NCBI RefSeq assembly: GCF_013122565.1
Contig: NZ_CP053258.1
DNA: 64,000 bases
Reading direction: 5' to 3' (one strand)
Source of the DNA: Escherichia coli
GTDB lineage: Bacteria; Pseudomonadota; Gammaproteobacteria; Enterobacterales; Enterobacteriaceae
A program made the position numbers and the translations under genes. Shown here piece after piece: positions 41,674-46,889 of this stretch. Within the stretch, counting starts at the first letter, position 1, and each line of letters starts with the position of its first letter. The notes beneath the pieces are model-generated. The model did no database searches. It saw nothing but the letters and a program-made list of their open reading frames with translations, and had not been told where the DNA came from.

Positions 41674-42600
41674 ATGTTCGATCCAGAAACCTTGCGGACT
41701 TTCATTGCGGTTGCTGAAACAGGAAGTTTTTCAAAAGCGGCAGAACGATTATGTAAAACCACGGCGACGATCAGTTATCGCATTAAACTTCTGGAAGAGA
41801 ATACCGGAGTAGCGCTGTTTTTCCGCACGACTCGCAGCGTGACGTTGACAGCGGCTGGCGAGCATCTACTTTCCCAGGCCAGAGACTGGCTGAGCTGGCT
41901 GGAAAGTATGCCCAGCGAGCTGCAACAGGTGAATGATGGCGTGGAACGCCAGGTGAATATTGTCATCAACAACCTGCTCTACAACCCCCAGGCCGTCGCC
42001 CAGTTGCTGGCGTGGCTGAATGAACGTTACCCCTTTACCCAGTTTCACATCTCCCGACAAATCTATATGGGCGTCTGGGACTCGCTATTGTACGAAGGTT
42101 TTTCACTGGCTATCGGCGTCACGGGAACCGAGGCGCTGGCAAATACCTTTAGTCTTGATCCCTTAGGATCGGTGCAATGGCGATTTGTCATGGCGGCGGA
42201 TCATCCGCTGGCGAACGTTGAAGAGCCGCTAACAGAAGCGCAGTTGCGGCGCTTTCCGGCGGTCAATATTGAAGACAGCGCCCGCACCTTAACCAAACGC
42301 GTCGCCTGGCGATTGCCGGGGCAAAAAGAGATTATTGTTCCCGATATGGAAACGAAAATCGCCGCCCATCTGGCGGGCGTTGGCATTGGTTTTTTGCCAA
42401 AATCACTTTGCCAGTCAATGATCGATAATCAACAACTGGTCAGCCGGGTAATCCCAACGATGCGCCCTCCTTCGCCATTGAGTCTGGCATGGCGCAAATT
42501 TGGCAGCGGCAAAGCGGTAGAAGATATTGTGACCTTGTTTACCCAGCGCAGGCCGGAAATCAGCGGATTTTTAGAAATTTTCGGCAACCCACGCAGTTAA
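41674..42600 (+). CDS. allS: LysR-family activator of allDCE, AllS (308 aa)
   Basis: N-terminal LysR HTH ([17 protein letters not shown]...) and substrate-binding domain. Confidence 0.92.
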
Positions 42601-42653: not shown

Positions 42654-43763
<1,110 letters not shown>

Positions 43764-43826
43764 TGGGCGGTATTCTGAAACGGCGATTGTCGTGAGAACA
43801 GAATGGTTGCACCAGAATACAGATAT

Positions 43827-43856
43827 AAAAAAACCGACATGACAGTCGGTTTTTTT
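43827..43856. terminator. Bidirectional rho-independent terminator after selU
   Basis: A7-ccgacATGACAgtcgg-T7; works on either strand. Confidence 0.75.
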
Positions 43857-43914
43857 ATTTTTTCCGCCCAAGACTTGGTGGTTCTGGGCAGAAATGAAAC
43901 AGTCCTCATCTAGC
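43827..43914 (-). ncRNA. Candidate antisense small RNA (putative antitoxin) — hypothesis only
   Basis: Minus-strand sigma70-like promoter (-35 TTGAAT, 17-bp spacer, -10 TATAAT; + coordinates 43921-43949); predicted transcript runs into the 43827-43856 terminator; its 5' end is complementary to a 16-nt element upstream of the 27-codon ORF. Confidence 0.3.
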
Positions 43915-44174
43915 AAGTGAATTATAAGTCAGGATGCCTACATATTCAAACAGCTATGTTGGCGATACAATCCCGACGCTAGTAGTGATACTGCCTCAAG
44001 GGATTACCGCAGTGCGGAAAAGTACTTTTAAGTCCTGGTCAGGATACAGGTGGTGCTGATTCTGGTGCTCTAATTTGGAGAGAGGCAGTCCTCATCTAGC
44101 ACATGAAGAAAATCATAGTTACAGGCAATGTAAGGGTAAGCTGTGATTGTCTTTCTCCCTTAAGGGAGCAACGG

Positions 44175-44258
44175 ATGAAAACTTTTCTCGATAAAGTTCT
44201 CATCGTTCTTAAGGCGCTAATCGCGCTGCTGGAACTGATCCGTCAGTTTATTGAATAA
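44175..44258 (+). CDS. 27-aa hydrophobic peptide MKTFLDKVLIVLKALIALLELIRQFIE; candidate type I toxin (DinQ/TisB/ShoB-like)
   Basis: ATG with SD AGGGAG 7 nt upstream; SD lies inside hairpin ctcccTTAAgggag; stop followed by hairpin ggccgaaggtttaccaccttcggcc; peptide is a single amphipathic TM helix; not in the 60-aa-minimum ORF track. Confidence 0.55.
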   Translation: MKTFLDKVLIVLKALIALLELIRQFIE

Positions 44259-44276
44259 CTGAGGAAACGTAGCTAA

Positions 44277-44301
44277 GGCCGAAGGTTTACCACCTTCGGC
44301 C
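44277..44301 (+). terminator. Hairpin terminator after the 27-codon ORF
   Basis: ggccgaagg-tttaccacc-ttcggcc followed by TTT, then a second hairpin ccgacatgacagttgg with flanking A/T runs. Confidence 0.5.
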
Positions 44302-44370
44302 TTTAAAAAACCGACATGACAGTTGGTTTCATATTTATTGCCAAAATGCACACTGTTCATGCCAGATGCG

Positions 44371-44458
44371 GCGTAAACGCCTTATCTGGCCTACACAATC
44401 TTGCAAAATCAATATATTGCACGATCTTCGTAGACCAGATAAGCGTAGCGCATCAGGC
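44371..44458. repeat. BIME (two REP units) downstream of ybbP
   Basis: gccagatgcggcgtaaacgccttatctggcctaca and gtagaccagataagcgtagcgcatcaggc. Confidence 0.85.
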
Positions 44459-44474
44459 AATCTAACGCCTGTCA

Positions 44475-46889
44475 TCACCCCGCAAACTGCCTGAACAGCG
44501 CCTTACCCTTAACCAGTCGCGCACCCAGCCAGCCGCCGCAAAGCGACAGCAGCAGCGCTCCGCTGCACGGCAGAACAATCCACAATCGCCAGTCTGGCTC
44601 CCACGGGAAATCAAACACTTTCGCCTGCAACACTGCCAGCGCCGTTTCCGCACCAATTGCGGCCACCAGGCCAGAAACAAACCCAAGCATGGCGAACTCA
44701 CACCACAATGTCGTGCGCAGCAGCTTTTTCCCCGCACCGAGTGTGCGCCACACCACCAGCTCCTGATGACGCTGACGCATTCCCACCTGCACCTGTGCCA
44801 GCAACAGCAACATACCGCAGGCGGTGACCAGCACCACCATCACCTCCAGCGCCCGACTTACCTGCTCCAGCACCTGACCGACCTGTTTTAAAATCGCGCC
44901 AATGTCTAACAGGCTAATGGTCGGGAACTGGCGGTTGAGTTGCGTCAACATGCCGTTGCCATTCTCCCAGCGGAAACTGGTAAGCCAGCTCTGCGGTTGC
45001 CCGTCTAATGCCCCTTCAGGGAAAATAAAATAGAAATTAGGCCGCAGACTTTCCCAGTCCACTTTGCGCAGGCTGGTCACTTTAGCGCGGAACTCCTGGG
45101 TATCGCCCATAAAAGTCACGGTATCACCGAGGGCAACGTTTAAGCGTTTCGCCAGCCCCTCTTCCATCGACACTTCATCGGCTTTTGGCGGCCAGTTACC
45201 GGCGACAATCGGATTATGATCGGGCCGCGTATTTTGCCAGGTAAGATTGAGTTCGCGGTTAAGCGCCTCATCTTCATTACCTTCTGTCGGCTTATCGTTA
45301 ATCGCCGTCAGCCGCGCCCGCACCACCGGATAAAACGATTCCGGGACTATCTGATGTTCCGCGAGGAACGCTTTTAGCGGTGCTACCTGTTCTGTGGCGA
45401 TGTTAATTAAAAAGTAGTTCGGGCTTTCTGGAGGTAGCTGCTGCTGCCAGCGGTCGAGCAGATCGCCACGCAACACCAGCAGCAGTGCCAGCAGCATAAA
45501 GGAGAGCGAAAATGCCGAAAGCTGGCTTAACGTTGACCACGGCTGACGTAACAGGCGGCTAACCGCCAGGCGCAGAGGCAGCGATTTCAGCGTCATGCGG
45601 CGAAGTACATTCAGCAGCATCCAGCCCAGCACACCGCACAGCAAAGCCAGTACTACCGCGCCCGCCAGCACCGCCCAAAGCAGCATGCTGCCACCCATTA
45701 ATCCGGCGAGCAGCAGCACAACCACCACACTGACAATCGGCAGATAAAACTTCAGCGGCCAGACGTTCGCTACCACATCATTACGCAATACGCGTAAAGG
45801 CTGCGTTGCCAGCAACAAGCGGTACGGTCGTAGCCCCACCAGCAGCGAGATGACTGTCATGGTGCCCAGCGCCCATAGCCACGGCCAGAGGCTGGCAGGC
45901 GGTAGTGCAGCAGGTAGAACGGGCTTGAGCAGCACCATCAACACGTTTTCGAATAACAGGCCTATCGCCCCACCGGTAACGGCTGAAAGCGACAGCACCA
46001 TCAACCACTGACCGACGATTAGCTTACGCAGCTGCACTCGCCCAGCCCCCAGCGTTTTGAGGATCGCCACCAGATCGTAGCGACTGCGACAGTAATGATT
46101 CATCGCCACCGCCACCGCTGCCACTGCCAGCAGCAAGGTTAGAAGCGCAGAAAGCAGCAGGAACTGTTGCGAGCGTTCCATCGATCGCCCCAGCGCGCCT
46201 TCATCCTGTTCCAGACCATACCAGCGTTGTTCGGGTTTAAGCTGAGGTAACAACCATTTCTCATAGCCGTCGAGCTGGTTCTCGTTGCCGCCGAATTTAT
46301 AGCGCCAGGTGACCCGACTCCCCGGCTGCACGGCTCCGGTTTTATCGACATCCGCCAGATTCATCATCAGACGCGGAGCCATCTGGAAGGGGTTAAAACC
46401 GGAATCCGGTTCCTGAATCACTTCTCCGGCAATCCGCAAGGTGGCATCGCCCACGTCAATGGTGTCGCCCGTTTTCAGGTTAAGCAGTGCCATCAGGCGT
46501 GGGGCCAGCAATACGCTGCCCGTCTGTGGTTTCAGGCCGGGGGGATTGGTTTGCAGATCGCCATACATCGGGTAGATATCATCCACCGCTTTGACATTCG
46601 CCAGCTGCGGTGTGTCGCCTGCAAATGTCATGGTGGCGAAAGTCAGCTGCTTGCCGACTTTCAGGCCGCGCTTTTGCGCTTCCTCCAGCCACGCTTGCGG
46701 CACCTCGCGCGAACTGCGTAGCGCCCGGTCGCCCGCCATAAATTCACGGCTTTGCTGGCTTAAGCCTTTTTCCATGCGATCGCTGATATTACCCAGCGCC
46801 AGCACGCAGGCCACCGCCAGGCTTAACGCCAGCCAGACAATCAATAGCGAAGGCGAGCGCCATTCGCGCCAGAACCAGCGTGCAATCAT
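44475..46889 (-). CDS. ybbP: ABC transporter permease YbbP, FtsX-like (804 aa)
   Basis: Large polytopic FtsX/MacB-type permease; 4-nt overlap with ybbA. Confidence 0.92.
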   Translation of the reverse strand: MIARWFWREWRSPSLLIVWLALSLAVACVLALGNISDRMEKGLSQQSREFMAGDRALRSSREVPQAWLEEAQKRGLKVGKQLTFATMTFAGDTPQLANVKAVDDIYPMYGDLQTNPPGLKPQTGSVLLAPRLMALLNLKTGDTIDVGDATLRIAGEVIQEPDSGFNPFQMAPRLMMNLADVDKTGAVQPGSRVTWRYKFGGNENQLDGYEKWLLPQLKPEQRWYGLEQDEGALGRSMERSQQFLLLSALLTLLLAVAAVAVAMNHYCRSRYDLVAILKTLGAGRVQLRKLIVGQWLMVLSLSAVTGGAIGLLFENVLMVLLKPVLPAALPPASLWPWLWALGTMTVISLLVGLRPYRLLLATQPLRVLRNDVVANVWPLKFYLPIVSVVVVLLLAGLMGGSMLLWAVLAGAVVLALLCGVLGWMLLNVLRRMTLKSLPLRLAVSRLLRQPWSTLSQLSAFSLSFMLLALLLVLRGDLLDRWQQQLPPESPNYFLINIATEQVAPLKAFLAEHQIVPESFYPVVRARLTAINDKPTEGNEDEALNRELNLTWQNTRPDHNPIVAGNWPPKADEVSMEEGLAKRLNVALGDTVTFMGDTQEFRAKVTSLRKVDWESLRPNFYFIFPEGALDGQPQSWLTSFRWENGNGMLTQLNRQFPTISLLDIGAILKQVGQVLEQVSRALEVMVVLVTACGMLLLLAQVQVGMRQRHQELVVWRTLGAGKKLLRTTLWCEFAMLGFVSGLVAAIGAETALAVLQAKVFDFPWEPDWRLWIVLPCSGALLLSLCGGWLGARLVKGKALFRQFAG

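What the first reader, a model, noticed from the sequence alone, without database searches (positions are those of the whole stretch)
43827..44326. Duplicated hairpin module AAAAACCGACATGACAGTYGG flanking the small-peptide locus
Near-identical hairpins with A/T runs occur at 43827-43856 and 44305-44330, about 478 bp apart, bracketing the peptide ORF and its upstream region. Both are oriented to terminate minus-strand transcripts (selU terminator/candidate sRNA on the left, ybbA-ybbP operon on the right). The duplication suggests the locus arose by, or is prone to, tandem duplication, as seen in multi-copy type I toxin loci (zor/orz, sib/ibs, ldr/rdl).
Basis: seen in the sequence. Interest (0 to 1): 0.3.

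Follow-up and report, generated by a model that had tools for sequence, protein, structure and literature searches.

The report
Antitoxin terminator hairpin and its orphan copy
The two near-identical hairpins are the transcription terminator of an AgrB-type antitoxin small RNA and a decaying orphan copy of it, flanking a known DinQ-like toxin-antitoxin module in E. coli; the pair has occasionally caused clean loss of the module, never its duplication, so the finding is real but ordinary.

Summary
A 25-nt core (43828-43852 and 44305-44329) matches at 24 of 25 positions, 477 bp apart, against 0.01 matches expected by chance.

The hairpins bracket a 570-bp island (43778-44347) between mnmH/selU and ybbP. 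The island holds a known dinQ/agrB-family type I toxin-antitoxin module:
- an AgrB-like sRNA on the minus strand (Rfam 56.5 bits, cut-off 40);
- a 27-aa DinQ-like toxin (NCBIfam 40.9 bits, cut-off 30).

The left hairpin is a perfect 14-bp bidirectional terminator serving the sRNA and mnmH. Its CCGAC/GTCGG stem is the conserved AgrB terminator across genera.

The right hairpin is an orphan copy. It has no flanking homology to the left copy. It is weak (-8.5 kcal/mol on the plus strand; -6.3 on the minus strand, no better than shuffles). It diverges about as fast as unconstrained sequence in a sister Escherichia lineage, where the left copy is 100% conserved.

Among 5,426 complete E. coli genomes:
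- about 1,314 carry the island;
- 5 carry exactly the predicted left-by-right deletion product (a solo hybrid hairpin, on at least two haplotype backgrounds);
- none carries the predicted tandem-duplication junction.

This is a known family with a minor structural twist. Interest is low.

The parts
43778..44347 (.). 570-bp dql-agrB island between mnmH (selU) and ybbP. It is present or absent as a block.
   Evidence: Boundaries come from comparison with empty-site alleles L001 and L002 (TGATGGGGGATTCTG|TGCACGCTGTTCATGC). The island is in about 1,314 of 5,426 E. coli genomes and the empty allele is in 583.
43825..43858 (.). Hairpin L: a perfect 14-bp stem with a 6-nt loop, A-run and T-run. It is a bidirectional intrinsic terminator for the AgrB-like sRNA (minus strand) and mnmH (plus strand).
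   Evidence: terminator-like on both strands; -16.4 and -17.5 kcal/mol. It aligns to the terminator stem of Rfam AgrB. It is 100% conserved in a sister lineage.
43825..43913 (-). AgrB-like antitoxin small RNA gene.
   Evidence: Rfam RF02891 AgrB, 56.5 bits (gathering score 40), E 2.5e-8, full-length model match.
43921..43949 (-). Sigma-70 promoter of the AgrB-like sRNA (TTGAAT-17-TATAAT). The -10 hexamer ends 7 nt before the start of the Rfam match.
44076..44100 (+). Target of the sRNA in the dql 5'UTR (14 nt of perfect pairing at 44086-44099). On the DNA it is a direct repeat of 43900-43921.
   Evidence: Repeat D3. Duplex energy is -34.4 kcal/mol against shuffles at -14.9 +/- 2.5, minimum -26.4.
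44152..44171 (+). Anti-SD/SD hairpin (TTTCTCCCTT/AAGGGAGCAA) just upstream of the toxin start codon, as in dinQ.
   Evidence: Inverted repeat I25, fold, alignment to dinQ and dqlB.
44175..44258 (+). DinQ-like toxin ORF, 27 aa: MKTFLDKVLIVLKALIALLELIRQFIE.
   Evidence: NCBIfam NF041472 toxin_DinQ, 40.9 bits (cut-off 30). RefSeq annotates the orthologue as dinQ.
44275..44303 (+). dql mRNA terminator hairpin (12-bp GC-rich stem), homologous to the dinQ and dqlB terminators.
   Evidence: Inverted repeat I10, fold, alignment. It is 100% conserved in the sister lineage.
44305..44329 (.). Hairpin R: an orphan, weakened copy of the AgrB-type terminator, starting 1 nt after the dql terminator and ending 18 nt inside the island's right edge.
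   Evidence: Its flanks are not homologous to those of L. In the sister lineage it is 86-89% identical, against 100% for L.

Best explanation
The region is a chromosomal member of the dinQ/agrB (dql) type I toxin-antitoxin family. It sits as a 570-bp island between the convergent genes mnmH and ybbP.

The left hairpin is the Rho-independent terminator of the AgrB-like antitoxin sRNA on the minus strand. It is a perfect palindrome flanked by an A-run and a T-run, so it also terminates mnmH on the plus strand. The 5' end of the sRNA pairs with the 5'UTR of the toxin mRNA, as AgrB does with dinQ.

The right hairpin is a duplicate of only the 25-nt terminator core. The copy was made before E. coli split from a sister Escherichia lineage, and it now lies just past the toxin's own terminator at the island's edge. 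It has no gene attached, has lost stem strength, and drifts at about the neutral rate. It is most likely a relic, for example the last remnant of a second agr copy or unit. It is not a working terminator.

The one consequence seen in genomes is that the two copies form short direct repeats. Slippage or recombination between them precisely deletes the whole toxin-antitoxin unit and leaves a solo hybrid hairpin.

Shown: the identity of the parts, the conservation pattern, and the deletion alleles. Inferred: termination activity, the relic origin of R, and the deletion mechanism.
For: Module identity:
- Rfam AgrB hit at 56.5 bits (cut-off 40), covering L as its terminator.
- Near-consensus promoter placed correctly for the sRNA.
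- NCBIfam toxin_DinQ at 40.9 bits (cut-off 30).
- sRNA-to-UTR duplex at -34.4 kcal/mol against -14.9 +/- 2.5 for shuffles.
- Full-length alignment to K-12 dinQ and plasmid dqlB.

L as family terminator:
- The CCGAC/GTCGG hairpin with A and T runs is the agr terminator in K-12, E. albertii, Citrobacter, Cedecea, Buttiauxella and plasmids.
- In the K-12 locus, the pNDM5 plasmid locus and the related loci read in full, none has a copy directly downstream of the toxin.

R as orphan relic:
- The flanks of L and R are not homologous (p 0.69 and 0.78).
- R folds weakly: -8.5 kcal/mol on the plus strand and -6.3 on the minus strand, against -16.4 and -17.5 for L.
- Between E. coli and a sister lineage, identities are L 100%, dql terminator 100%, UTR about 97.5%, ORF 97.6%, but R 86-89% and the 16 nt beyond it 69%.

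Deletion substrate:
- The predicted L-by-R deletion junction is found at full length in 5 of 5,426 genomes.
- It occurs on at least two flank haplotypes, each matching a different full-island haplotype.
- Both C and T occur at the one variable repeat position, although R always carries T in full alleles.
Against: - No transcript data were available, so termination at L and non-function of R are inferred from sequence alone.
- Both lineages changed R's stem by transitions that keep a G.U pair on the plus strand and create a mismatch on the minus strand. This could hint at weak selection for a plus-strand hairpin, but the chance of this outcome is 0.25.
- R has persisted since before the split of two Escherichia lineages. 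That is compatible with neutrality over about 5% divergence but does not prove it.
- The solo-hairpin allele could in principle be ancestral rather than a deletion product.
- Whether the empty site or the island is the ancestral state was not resolved.
Confidence: 0.72

Rival explanations
1. R is a functional element. It could be a back-up terminator or insulator. On the plus strand it would catch read-through of the toxin mRNA, whose own terminator has only a 3-U tail. On the minus strand it would stop ybbA-ybbP transcripts from running antisense into the toxin gene.
For: - R is scored terminator-like on the plus strand (8 pairs, tail CATATTTATT).
- Its stem substitutions in two lineages both preserve plus-strand pairing as G.U.
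- It is retained in essentially all island-bearing genomes (1,327 genomes match R plus its right flank) and in a sister lineage.
Against: - The hairpin is weak: -8.5 kcal/mol on the plus strand; -6.3 on the minus strand with z -0.34.
- The A-run that would give the minus-strand U-tract is interrupted in the sister lineage (AACAAACC).
- R and its tail diverge faster than every functional part of the module.
- The K-12 dinQ locus, the pNDM5 dqlB locus and the related loci read in full lack such a second hairpin.
- Empty-site alleles have no hairpin between mnmH and ybbP at all.
Confidence: 0.18
2. One reading: the duplicated hairpin marks a locus that arose by tandem duplication of the whole toxin-antitoxin unit and is still prone to it, like zor/orz, ldr/rdl and sib/ibs.
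For: - The family does duplicate in tandem: agrA/agrB in K-12 (Weel-Sneve 2013, PMC3567139), three agr copies in Hafnia, and two dqlB plus five agr copies on a Salmonella IncFII plasmid.
- In such arrays the next unit's agr terminator lies downstream of a toxin gene, as R does.
- A truncated second unit is therefore a plausible origin for R.
Against: - No homology exists beyond the 25-nt core, and there is no second toxin or sRNA copy.
- The predicted duplication junction is found in 0 of 5,426 genomes, while the deletion junction is found in 5.
- The extra length in strain 23AR1183 is REP copies, not TA units.
- In 13 metagenome contigs, spacings were 478, 407 or 370 nt, never longer.
Confidence: 0.08
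3. The two hairpins are the ends of a mobile cassette. They would be recombination sites recognised as folded hairpins by a transposase or recombinase acting in trans, which inserts and excises the module. The solo hairpin would then be the empty attachment site.
For: - The island is present or absent as a clean block, without target-site duplication.
- Similar subterminal hairpins lie in direct orientation near both ends.
- Precise solo-hairpin alleles exist.
Against: - The island is found at one site only, with one place per genome.
- It is absent from viral contigs and from plasmids other than mislabelled chromosomes.
- The hairpin is the family's ordinary sRNA terminator.
- The true empty site contains no hairpin.
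- No recombinase gene is associated with it.
- R is decaying.
Confidence: 0.02

Closest known systems
dinQ-agrAB type I toxin-antitoxin locus of E. coli K-12 (gor-arsR intergenic region; Weel-Sneve et al. 2013, PMC3567139; Kristiansen et al. 2016, PMC5066626)
   Same: - A 27-aa single-transmembrane toxin with the DinQ signature.
- A divergently encoded, non-overlapping AgrB-type sRNA whose 5' end pairs with the toxin 5'UTR.
- The sRNA terminator has the same CCGAC/GTCGG stem.
- Conserved UTR blocks, an anti-SD/SD hairpin and a GC-rich toxin terminator.
   Different: - It has one agr copy rather than two.
- It has no LexA box (CTG-N10-CAG) anywhere in the island, so it is probably not SOS-induced.
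- It lies at a different chromosomal site (mnmH-ybbP) and is present in only about a quarter of E. coli genomes.
- It carries an extra orphan copy of the sRNA terminator downstream of the toxin gene, which K-12 lacks.
dql (dinQ-like) genes, including plasmid dqlB-agrB of pOXA-48 (Kristiansen 2016; Nat Commun 2025, PMC12365149)
   Same: Same family and layout. Chromosomal dql paralogues alongside dinQ were reported as a class in 2016. For the pOXA-48 copy, dqlB toxicity and antitoxin rescue by agrB base-pairing were shown experimentally.
   Different: The window's peptide scores as DinQ (40.9 bits) and falls below the DqlB cut-off (24.5 bits against 35). The plasmid locus has no second hairpin after the toxin terminator. 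The closest plasmid relatives are only about 72% identical, and only over the mRNA part.
zor/orz tandem type I loci and orz-only remnants (Fozo 2010; mSystems 2024, PMC11264685)
   Same: Partial or remnant antitoxin pieces and toxin-less alleles are common in E. coli populations. The zor/orz unit aligns with dinQ/agrB over its whole length, including the antitoxin terminator.
   Different: zor/orz shows real copy-number variation of whole units. Here only a 25-nt terminator core is duplicated, and the variation seen is loss, not gain.
Deletion between short direct repeats by replication slippage or short-homology recombination (general bacterial mutational mechanism; from established knowledge, not tested here)
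   Same: Direct repeats of 19-25 bp, 477 bp apart, themselves palindromic. The products are precise and keep one hybrid repeat. The variable position resolves to either allele.
   Different: The mechanism (RecA dependence, slippage versus recombination) was not tested. Frequency is known only as 5 of about 1,330 island-lineage genomes.

Membership tests
dinQ/agrB (dql) type I toxin-antitoxin family | Small hydrophobic single-helix toxin with the DinQ sequence signature | tested here: met
   NCBIfam NF041472 toxin_DinQ, 40.9 bits against cut-off 30. The orthologous CDS is annotated as dinQ in RefSeq.
dinQ/agrB (dql) type I toxin-antitoxin family | AgrB-type sRNA gene upstream of the toxin gene and divergent from it, with its own promoter and Rho-independent terminator | tested here: met
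   Rfam RF02891, 56.5 bits against gathering score 40, minus strand 43913-43825. Promoter TTGAAT-17-TATAAT. Terminator is hairpin L.
dinQ/agrB (dql) type I toxin-antitoxin family | 5' end of the sRNA complementary in trans to the toxin mRNA 5'UTR | tested here: met
   14 nt of perfect pairing, extended to 24 nt. Energy is -34.4 kcal/mol against shuffles at -14.9 +/- 2.5. Seen on the DNA as direct repeat D3.
dinQ/agrB (dql) type I toxin-antitoxin family | Conserved 5'UTR sequence elements and an SD-sequestering stem-loop | tested here: met
   Alignment with dinQ and dqlB shows shared AAGTCCTG, ACRGGTGGTGC, GACAGGCARTGTAAG and anti-SD/SD blocks. The SD hairpin folds. The four-element structural switch was not modelled in detail.
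dinQ/agrB (dql) type I toxin-antitoxin family | Toxicity of the peptide and rescue by the sRNA | not testable with these tools
   Needs expression experiments. These have been done for dinQ (PMC3567139) and for pOXA-48 dqlB (PMC12365149), not for this paralogue.
dinQ proper (SOS-regulated 'damage-inducible' gene) | LexA operator overlapping the toxin promoter | tested here: not met
   No CTG-N10-CAG occurs anywhere in 43778-44347. K-12 has TACTGTATGATTATCCAGT at the aligned position.
Multi-copy tandem type I toxin loci (zor/orz, ldr/rdl, sib/ibs style) | Two or more toxin-antitoxin units in tandem with homology extending across the unit | tested here: not met
   The repeat is limited to a 25-nt core and the flanks are not similar (p 0.69 and 0.78). 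There is one AgrB hit and one toxin ORF.
Multi-copy tandem type I toxin loci (zor/orz, ldr/rdl, sib/ibs style) | Copy-number variation of the unit among strains | tested here: not met
   The duplication junction is in 0 of 5,426 genomes. Only losses were seen: 5 solo-hairpin alleles, a 107-bp toxin deletion, and shorter spacings in metagenome contigs.
Intrinsic (Rho-independent) terminator | Stable GC-containing stem directly followed by a U-tract on the transcribed strand | tested here: met
   This row is for L, which meets the feature on both strands: 14 bp, -16.4 and -17.5 kcal/mol, T7 tails. R is marginal on the plus strand (-8.5 kcal/mol, tail CATATTTATT). On the minus strand R has a U6 tail but its mismatched stem fails the scan's hairpin criteria (A.C mismatch, z -0.34). 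Actual termination was not measured.

The most novel reading that the evidence does not exclude
The hairpin pair makes the toxin-antitoxin module an excisable cassette. AgrB-type terminator hairpins at both ends would act as hairpin-dependent recombination or slippage sites. These would let type I TA modules be lost precisely, and perhaps gained, at intergenic terminators. That could explain how such tiny modules come and go between convergent genes without any mobility gene. The orphan copy would then be maintained because it provides this exit route.
Probability: 0.05. Interest if true: 0.5.

Novelty: new member of a known kind. Interest (0 to 1): 0.15.

Why it matters
The finding mostly tidies up annotation.
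- The 'small-peptide locus' is a DinQ-like type I toxin with an unannotated AgrB-like antitoxin sRNA. The 'duplicated module' is that sRNA's terminator plus a relic copy.
- The modest added value is a natural example of a chromosomal type I TA module deleted cleanly through a 25-bp repeat. This shows that simultaneous loss of toxin and antitoxin is tolerated.
- It also shows that the 'damage-inducible' label is probably wrong for this paralogue, because it has no LexA box.

Tried and rejected
- **Chance repeat:** rejected. There are 2 matches against 0.01 expected.
- **Extended unit homology:** Smith-Waterman alignment with permutation, on the left flanks, the right flanks and the remainder, found nothing.
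- **Dispersed repeat or mobile element:**
  - there is one place per genome;
  - no viral contigs match;
  - plasmid hits with the full island are mislabelled chromosomes;
  - two metagenome hits (L090, L094) are an unrelated chance hairpin.
- **Target-site duplication or att-site origin of the repeat:** rejected, because empty-site alleles contain no hairpin.
- **Longer allele as a tandem duplication:** the extra 200 bp in strain 23AR1183 is extra REP copies.
- **Coding potential:** both hairpin loops carry ATG and open similar short ORFs (MTVGFF..., MTVGFI...). Neither has a Shine-Dalgarno sequence and the right one runs through REP elements. I treated this as a by-product of the repeat.
- **OrzO-P, STnc370, RNAI and other sub-threshold Rfam hits on L:** they match only the generic terminator hairpin.
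- **Technical dead ends:**
  - RNAduplex on the full-length RNAs gave an unrealistically long duplex, so I repeated it with the 5' 24 nt only;
  - the Citrobacter row of alignment A2 used wrong coordinates and should be ignored;
  - a junction query for the 107-bp toxin deletion could not count carriers, because the tool joins split matches.
- **Ancestral state (island versus empty site):** not resolved.

Full report
**What is in the sequence**

The window is E. coli. The genes allS (41674-42600, plus strand), mnmH/selU (42669-43763, plus strand) and ybbP (44475-46889, minus strand) surround the region (names from RefSeq annotation of near-identical genomes).

The reported hairpins are real.
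- The left one (L) is a perfect 14-bp inverted repeat, 43825-43838 and 43845-43858, with loop ATGACA.
- The right one (R) is the stem-loop 44308-44329.
- The direct repeat reported by the tool is 38 nt at 82% identity (43828-43865 versus 44305-44342, spacing 477).
- Read base by base, it is a 25-nt core, AAAAAACCGACATGACAGTYGGTTT, identical at 24 of 25 positions, followed by T-rich sequence of doubtful homology.
- With up to three mismatches, the motif occurs only at these two places in 64 kb, against 0.01 expected.

**What the locus is**

The Rfam scan places a full-length AgrB match on the minus strand, 43913 to 43825 (56.5 bits, gathering score 40, E 2.5e-8). Hairpin L aligns as its terminator stem. 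A near-consensus promoter, TTGAAT-17-TATAAT, lies on the minus strand at 43949-43921, and its -10 hexamer ends 7 nt before the start of the match.

Downstream on the plus strand is a 27-codon ORF (44175-44258), MKTFLDKVLIVLKALIALLELIRQFIE.
- It scores 40.9 bits on NCBIfam toxin_DinQ (cut-off 30).
- It is annotated dinQ in about 1,314 of 5,426 complete E. coli genomes that carry the same segment.
- The first 24 nt of the sRNA pair with the toxin 5'UTR at 44076-44100. The energy is -34.4 kcal/mol, against -14.9 +/- 2.5 for shuffles with a best of -26.4.
- On the DNA, this pairing appears as the 22-nt direct repeat 43900-43921 / 44086-44107.

The whole mRNA region aligns with K-12 dinQ and with plasmid dqlB. 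Shared features are the conserved UTR blocks, an anti-SD/SD hairpin (44152-44171), the post-stop GAAACG..TAAGG motif and a GC-rich terminator at 44275-44303.

This is therefore a member of the dinQ/agrB (dql) type I toxin-antitoxin family. That family was described by Weel-Sneve et al. 2013 (PMC3567139) and Kristiansen et al. 2016 (PMC5066626), who already noted chromosomal dql paralogues. A plasmid member was validated experimentally in 2025 (PMC12365149).

**The island**

Alleles without the module (L001, L002) read TGATGGGGGATTCTG|TGCACGCTGTTCATGC. This fixes the island at 43778-44347 (570 bp). It has no target-site duplication and, importantly, no hairpin in the empty site. Both hairpin copies therefore belong to the island. 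They are not a duplicated target.

The empty allele is in 583 genomes. K-12 and many others have different content at this site: the query matches only the mnmH end.

**What the hairpins are**

The CCGAC/GTCGG stem flanked by A and T runs is the conserved terminator of agr sRNAs. It occurs with varying loops in K-12 agrA and agrB, E. albertii, E. whittamii, Citrobacter, Cedecea, Buttiauxella and plasmids.

L is that terminator for the local sRNA.
- It is a perfect palindrome with T7 on both sides.
- It is scored as a terminator on both strands and folds at -16.4 kcal/mol (plus strand) and -17.5 (minus strand).
- It also serves mnmH, which ends 62 nt upstream on the plus strand.

For R the remark is poorly supported.
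- On the minus strand R carries an A.C mismatch and folds at -6.3 kcal/mol (z -0.34).
- On the plus strand it has a G.U pair and folds at -8.5 kcal/mol (z -2.3).
- The pattern scan picks it up only on the plus strand.

**Is R part of a duplicated unit?**

No. Local alignment with permutation shows that the sequences to the left of L and R, to the right of L and R, and the rest of the module versus the sequence after R are no more similar than shuffles (p 0.69, 0.78 and 0.92).

In the K-12 locus, the pNDM5 plasmid locus and the related loci read in full, none has a CCGAC hairpin directly downstream of the toxin gene. The second copy was found only in this island:
- in E. coli;
- in Escherichia sp. 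E1V33 (L066);
- in three metagenome contigs from a more distant Escherichia lineage (L089, L092, L096). Their mnmH is about 93% identical to the window and their allele is absent from all 5,426 E. coli genomes.

In that lineage R reads AACAAACCGGCATGACAGTCGGTTTCAG. It keeps the C that E. coli lost and has a different stem transition. The ancestral R was therefore identical to L in the core, and the duplication predates the split.

Per-segment identity between the window and that lineage is informative:

| Segment | Identity |
|---|---|
| Hairpin L | 100% |
| dql terminator | 100% |
| dql 5'UTR | about 97.5% |
| dql ORF | 97.6% |
| agr body | 91.5-95% |
| Hairpin R | 86-89% |
| 16 nt from R to the island edge | 69% |

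R behaves like unconstrained sequence, whereas L is under constraint.

The two stem changes in R both leave a G.U pair on the plus strand. This could hint at weak plus-strand function, but the probability of that pattern by chance is one in four.

**Origin of R**

The family does build tandem arrays.
- K-12 has agrA and agrB. The authors themselves proposed tandem duplication with decay of agrA.
- Hafnia paralvei has three agr copies.
- A Salmonella IncFII plasmid has two dqlB genes and five agr copies in a row.

In such an array the terminator of the next unit's agr lies downstream of a toxin gene. A truncated second unit, or the cut point of a piece taken from an array, is therefore a reasonable origin for R. 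Nothing beyond the hairpin survives to prove it.

**What the repeat does in populations**

I wrote out the two products expected from recombination between L and R and searched for them.
- **Deletion junction** (left context of L, hybrid hairpin, right context of R). It is present at full length in 5 of 5,426 genomes: LR-28, AR_0077, PapM-32-1, PapRG-04-4 and GF131. In each, mnmH and ybbP are separated only by the solo hairpin and a REP pair.
- **Haplotypes.** The five fall on at least two flank haplotypes, each matching a different full-island haplotype (compare L004 and L066).
- **Variable position.** It is T in three genomes and C in two. No full allele has C in R: the best hits all carry the mismatch. 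This is what misalignment across the repeat, with either resolution of the mismatch, would give. It argues for recurrent deletion rather than an ancestral solo site.
- **Duplication junction** (right context of L after left context of R). It is found in 0 genomes.

Other length variants are also not gains of units.
- The extra length in strain 23AR1183 is REP copies.
- Strain 3150 has a 107-bp deletion between AGTCCTCATC and AGTTCTCATC. It removes the SD sequence and the start of the toxin gene.
- Metagenome contigs show spacings of 478, 407 and 370 nt.

The locus is therefore prone to loss, not to amplification.

**Verdict**

The left hairpin is the bidirectional terminator of an AgrB-like antitoxin sRNA and of mnmH. 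The right hairpin is most likely a decaying orphan copy of it. The pair acts as a short direct repeat that occasionally deletes the toxin-antitoxin module.

The tandem-duplication interpretation is not supported for the present locus, though it remains a possible remote origin of R. The system belongs to a known, already annotated family. Only the orphan terminator copy and the deletion alleles appear undescribed in the papers consulted, and they are minor. Interest is low.

Noticed in passing
window 43815-44312; loci L057, L065, L076 (Escherichia spp.), L014 (Superficieibacter), L019 (Pluralibacter): zor/orz and dinQ/agrB modules look homologous over the whole unit. A scan with the dql 5'UTR motif AAGTCCTG-N8/9-ACRGGTGGTGC pulled in zorO loci (peptide MDTLTQKL...). 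The alignment shows shared UTR blocks, an anti-SD/SD hairpin, the GAAACG..TAAGG motif and the CCTTTAATAAA tail. The antitoxin terminator shares the loop and has compensatory stem changes (CCGAC-TGGTGAG-GTCGG versus CCTGC-TGGTGAG-GCAGG). A 2024 paper (PMC11264685) says no relationship between the two families had been proposed.
   Followed up: partly
window 43914-44000 (dql promoter region): There is no LexA box (CTG-N10-CAG) anywhere in the island. K-12 dinQ has one over its -10 element. The RefSeq product name 'damage-inducible type I toxin DinQ' is probably inappropriate for this paralogue.
   Followed up: partly
L004 (strain 3150), corresponding to window about 44090-44197; also L100 and L101: Toxin-inactivated, antitoxin-only alleles exist. 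A 107-bp deletion between the near-repeats AGTCCTCATC and AGTTCTCATC removes the SD sequence and the start of the toxin ORF while keeping the sRNA gene. This is analogous to the orz-only loci. The number of carriers could not be counted.
   Followed up: partly
window 43764-44474 (mnmH-ybbP intergenic site): The site is a multi-allelic hotspot among 5,426 E. coli genomes. About 1,314 have the dql island, 5 a solo hairpin and 583 are empty. The remainder have other content; K-12 has the rhsD element here (from my own knowledge, not checked). The number of REP copies next to ybbP also varies from 0 to at least 6.
   Followed up: partly
window 44354-44460: A REP/BIME pair lies between the island and the ybbP stop codon. 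It gives sub-threshold Rfam hits to naRNA4 and ES036. It is absent from the sister-lineage allele.
   Followed up: no
L088 (Salmonella Saintpaul IncFII plasmid NZ_CP022492.1) 79-1673; L029 (Hafnia paralvei) 5373-5690: These are large tandem arrays in the same family. The plasmid has two dqlB genes with two and three agr copies in front of them. The Hafnia chromosome has three agr copies in a row.
   Followed up: partly
L098 (human gut metagenome contig) 1757-2184: This allele has hairpin spacing of 407 nt. The toxin ORF's 3' end and its terminator are missing, and R is joined directly to ...CTGGAACTGA. Contig coverage is below 2x, so it may be an assembly artefact.
   Followed up: no
window 43913-43890 versus K-12 dinQ (L005): The local AgrB-like sRNA is predicted to pair with K-12-type dinQ mRNA at -28.1 kcal/mol. 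K-12 AgrB is predicted to pair with the local dql UTR at -34.6 kcal/mol. Cross-talk between the two paralogous modules in strains that carry both is therefore conceivable.
   Followed up: no
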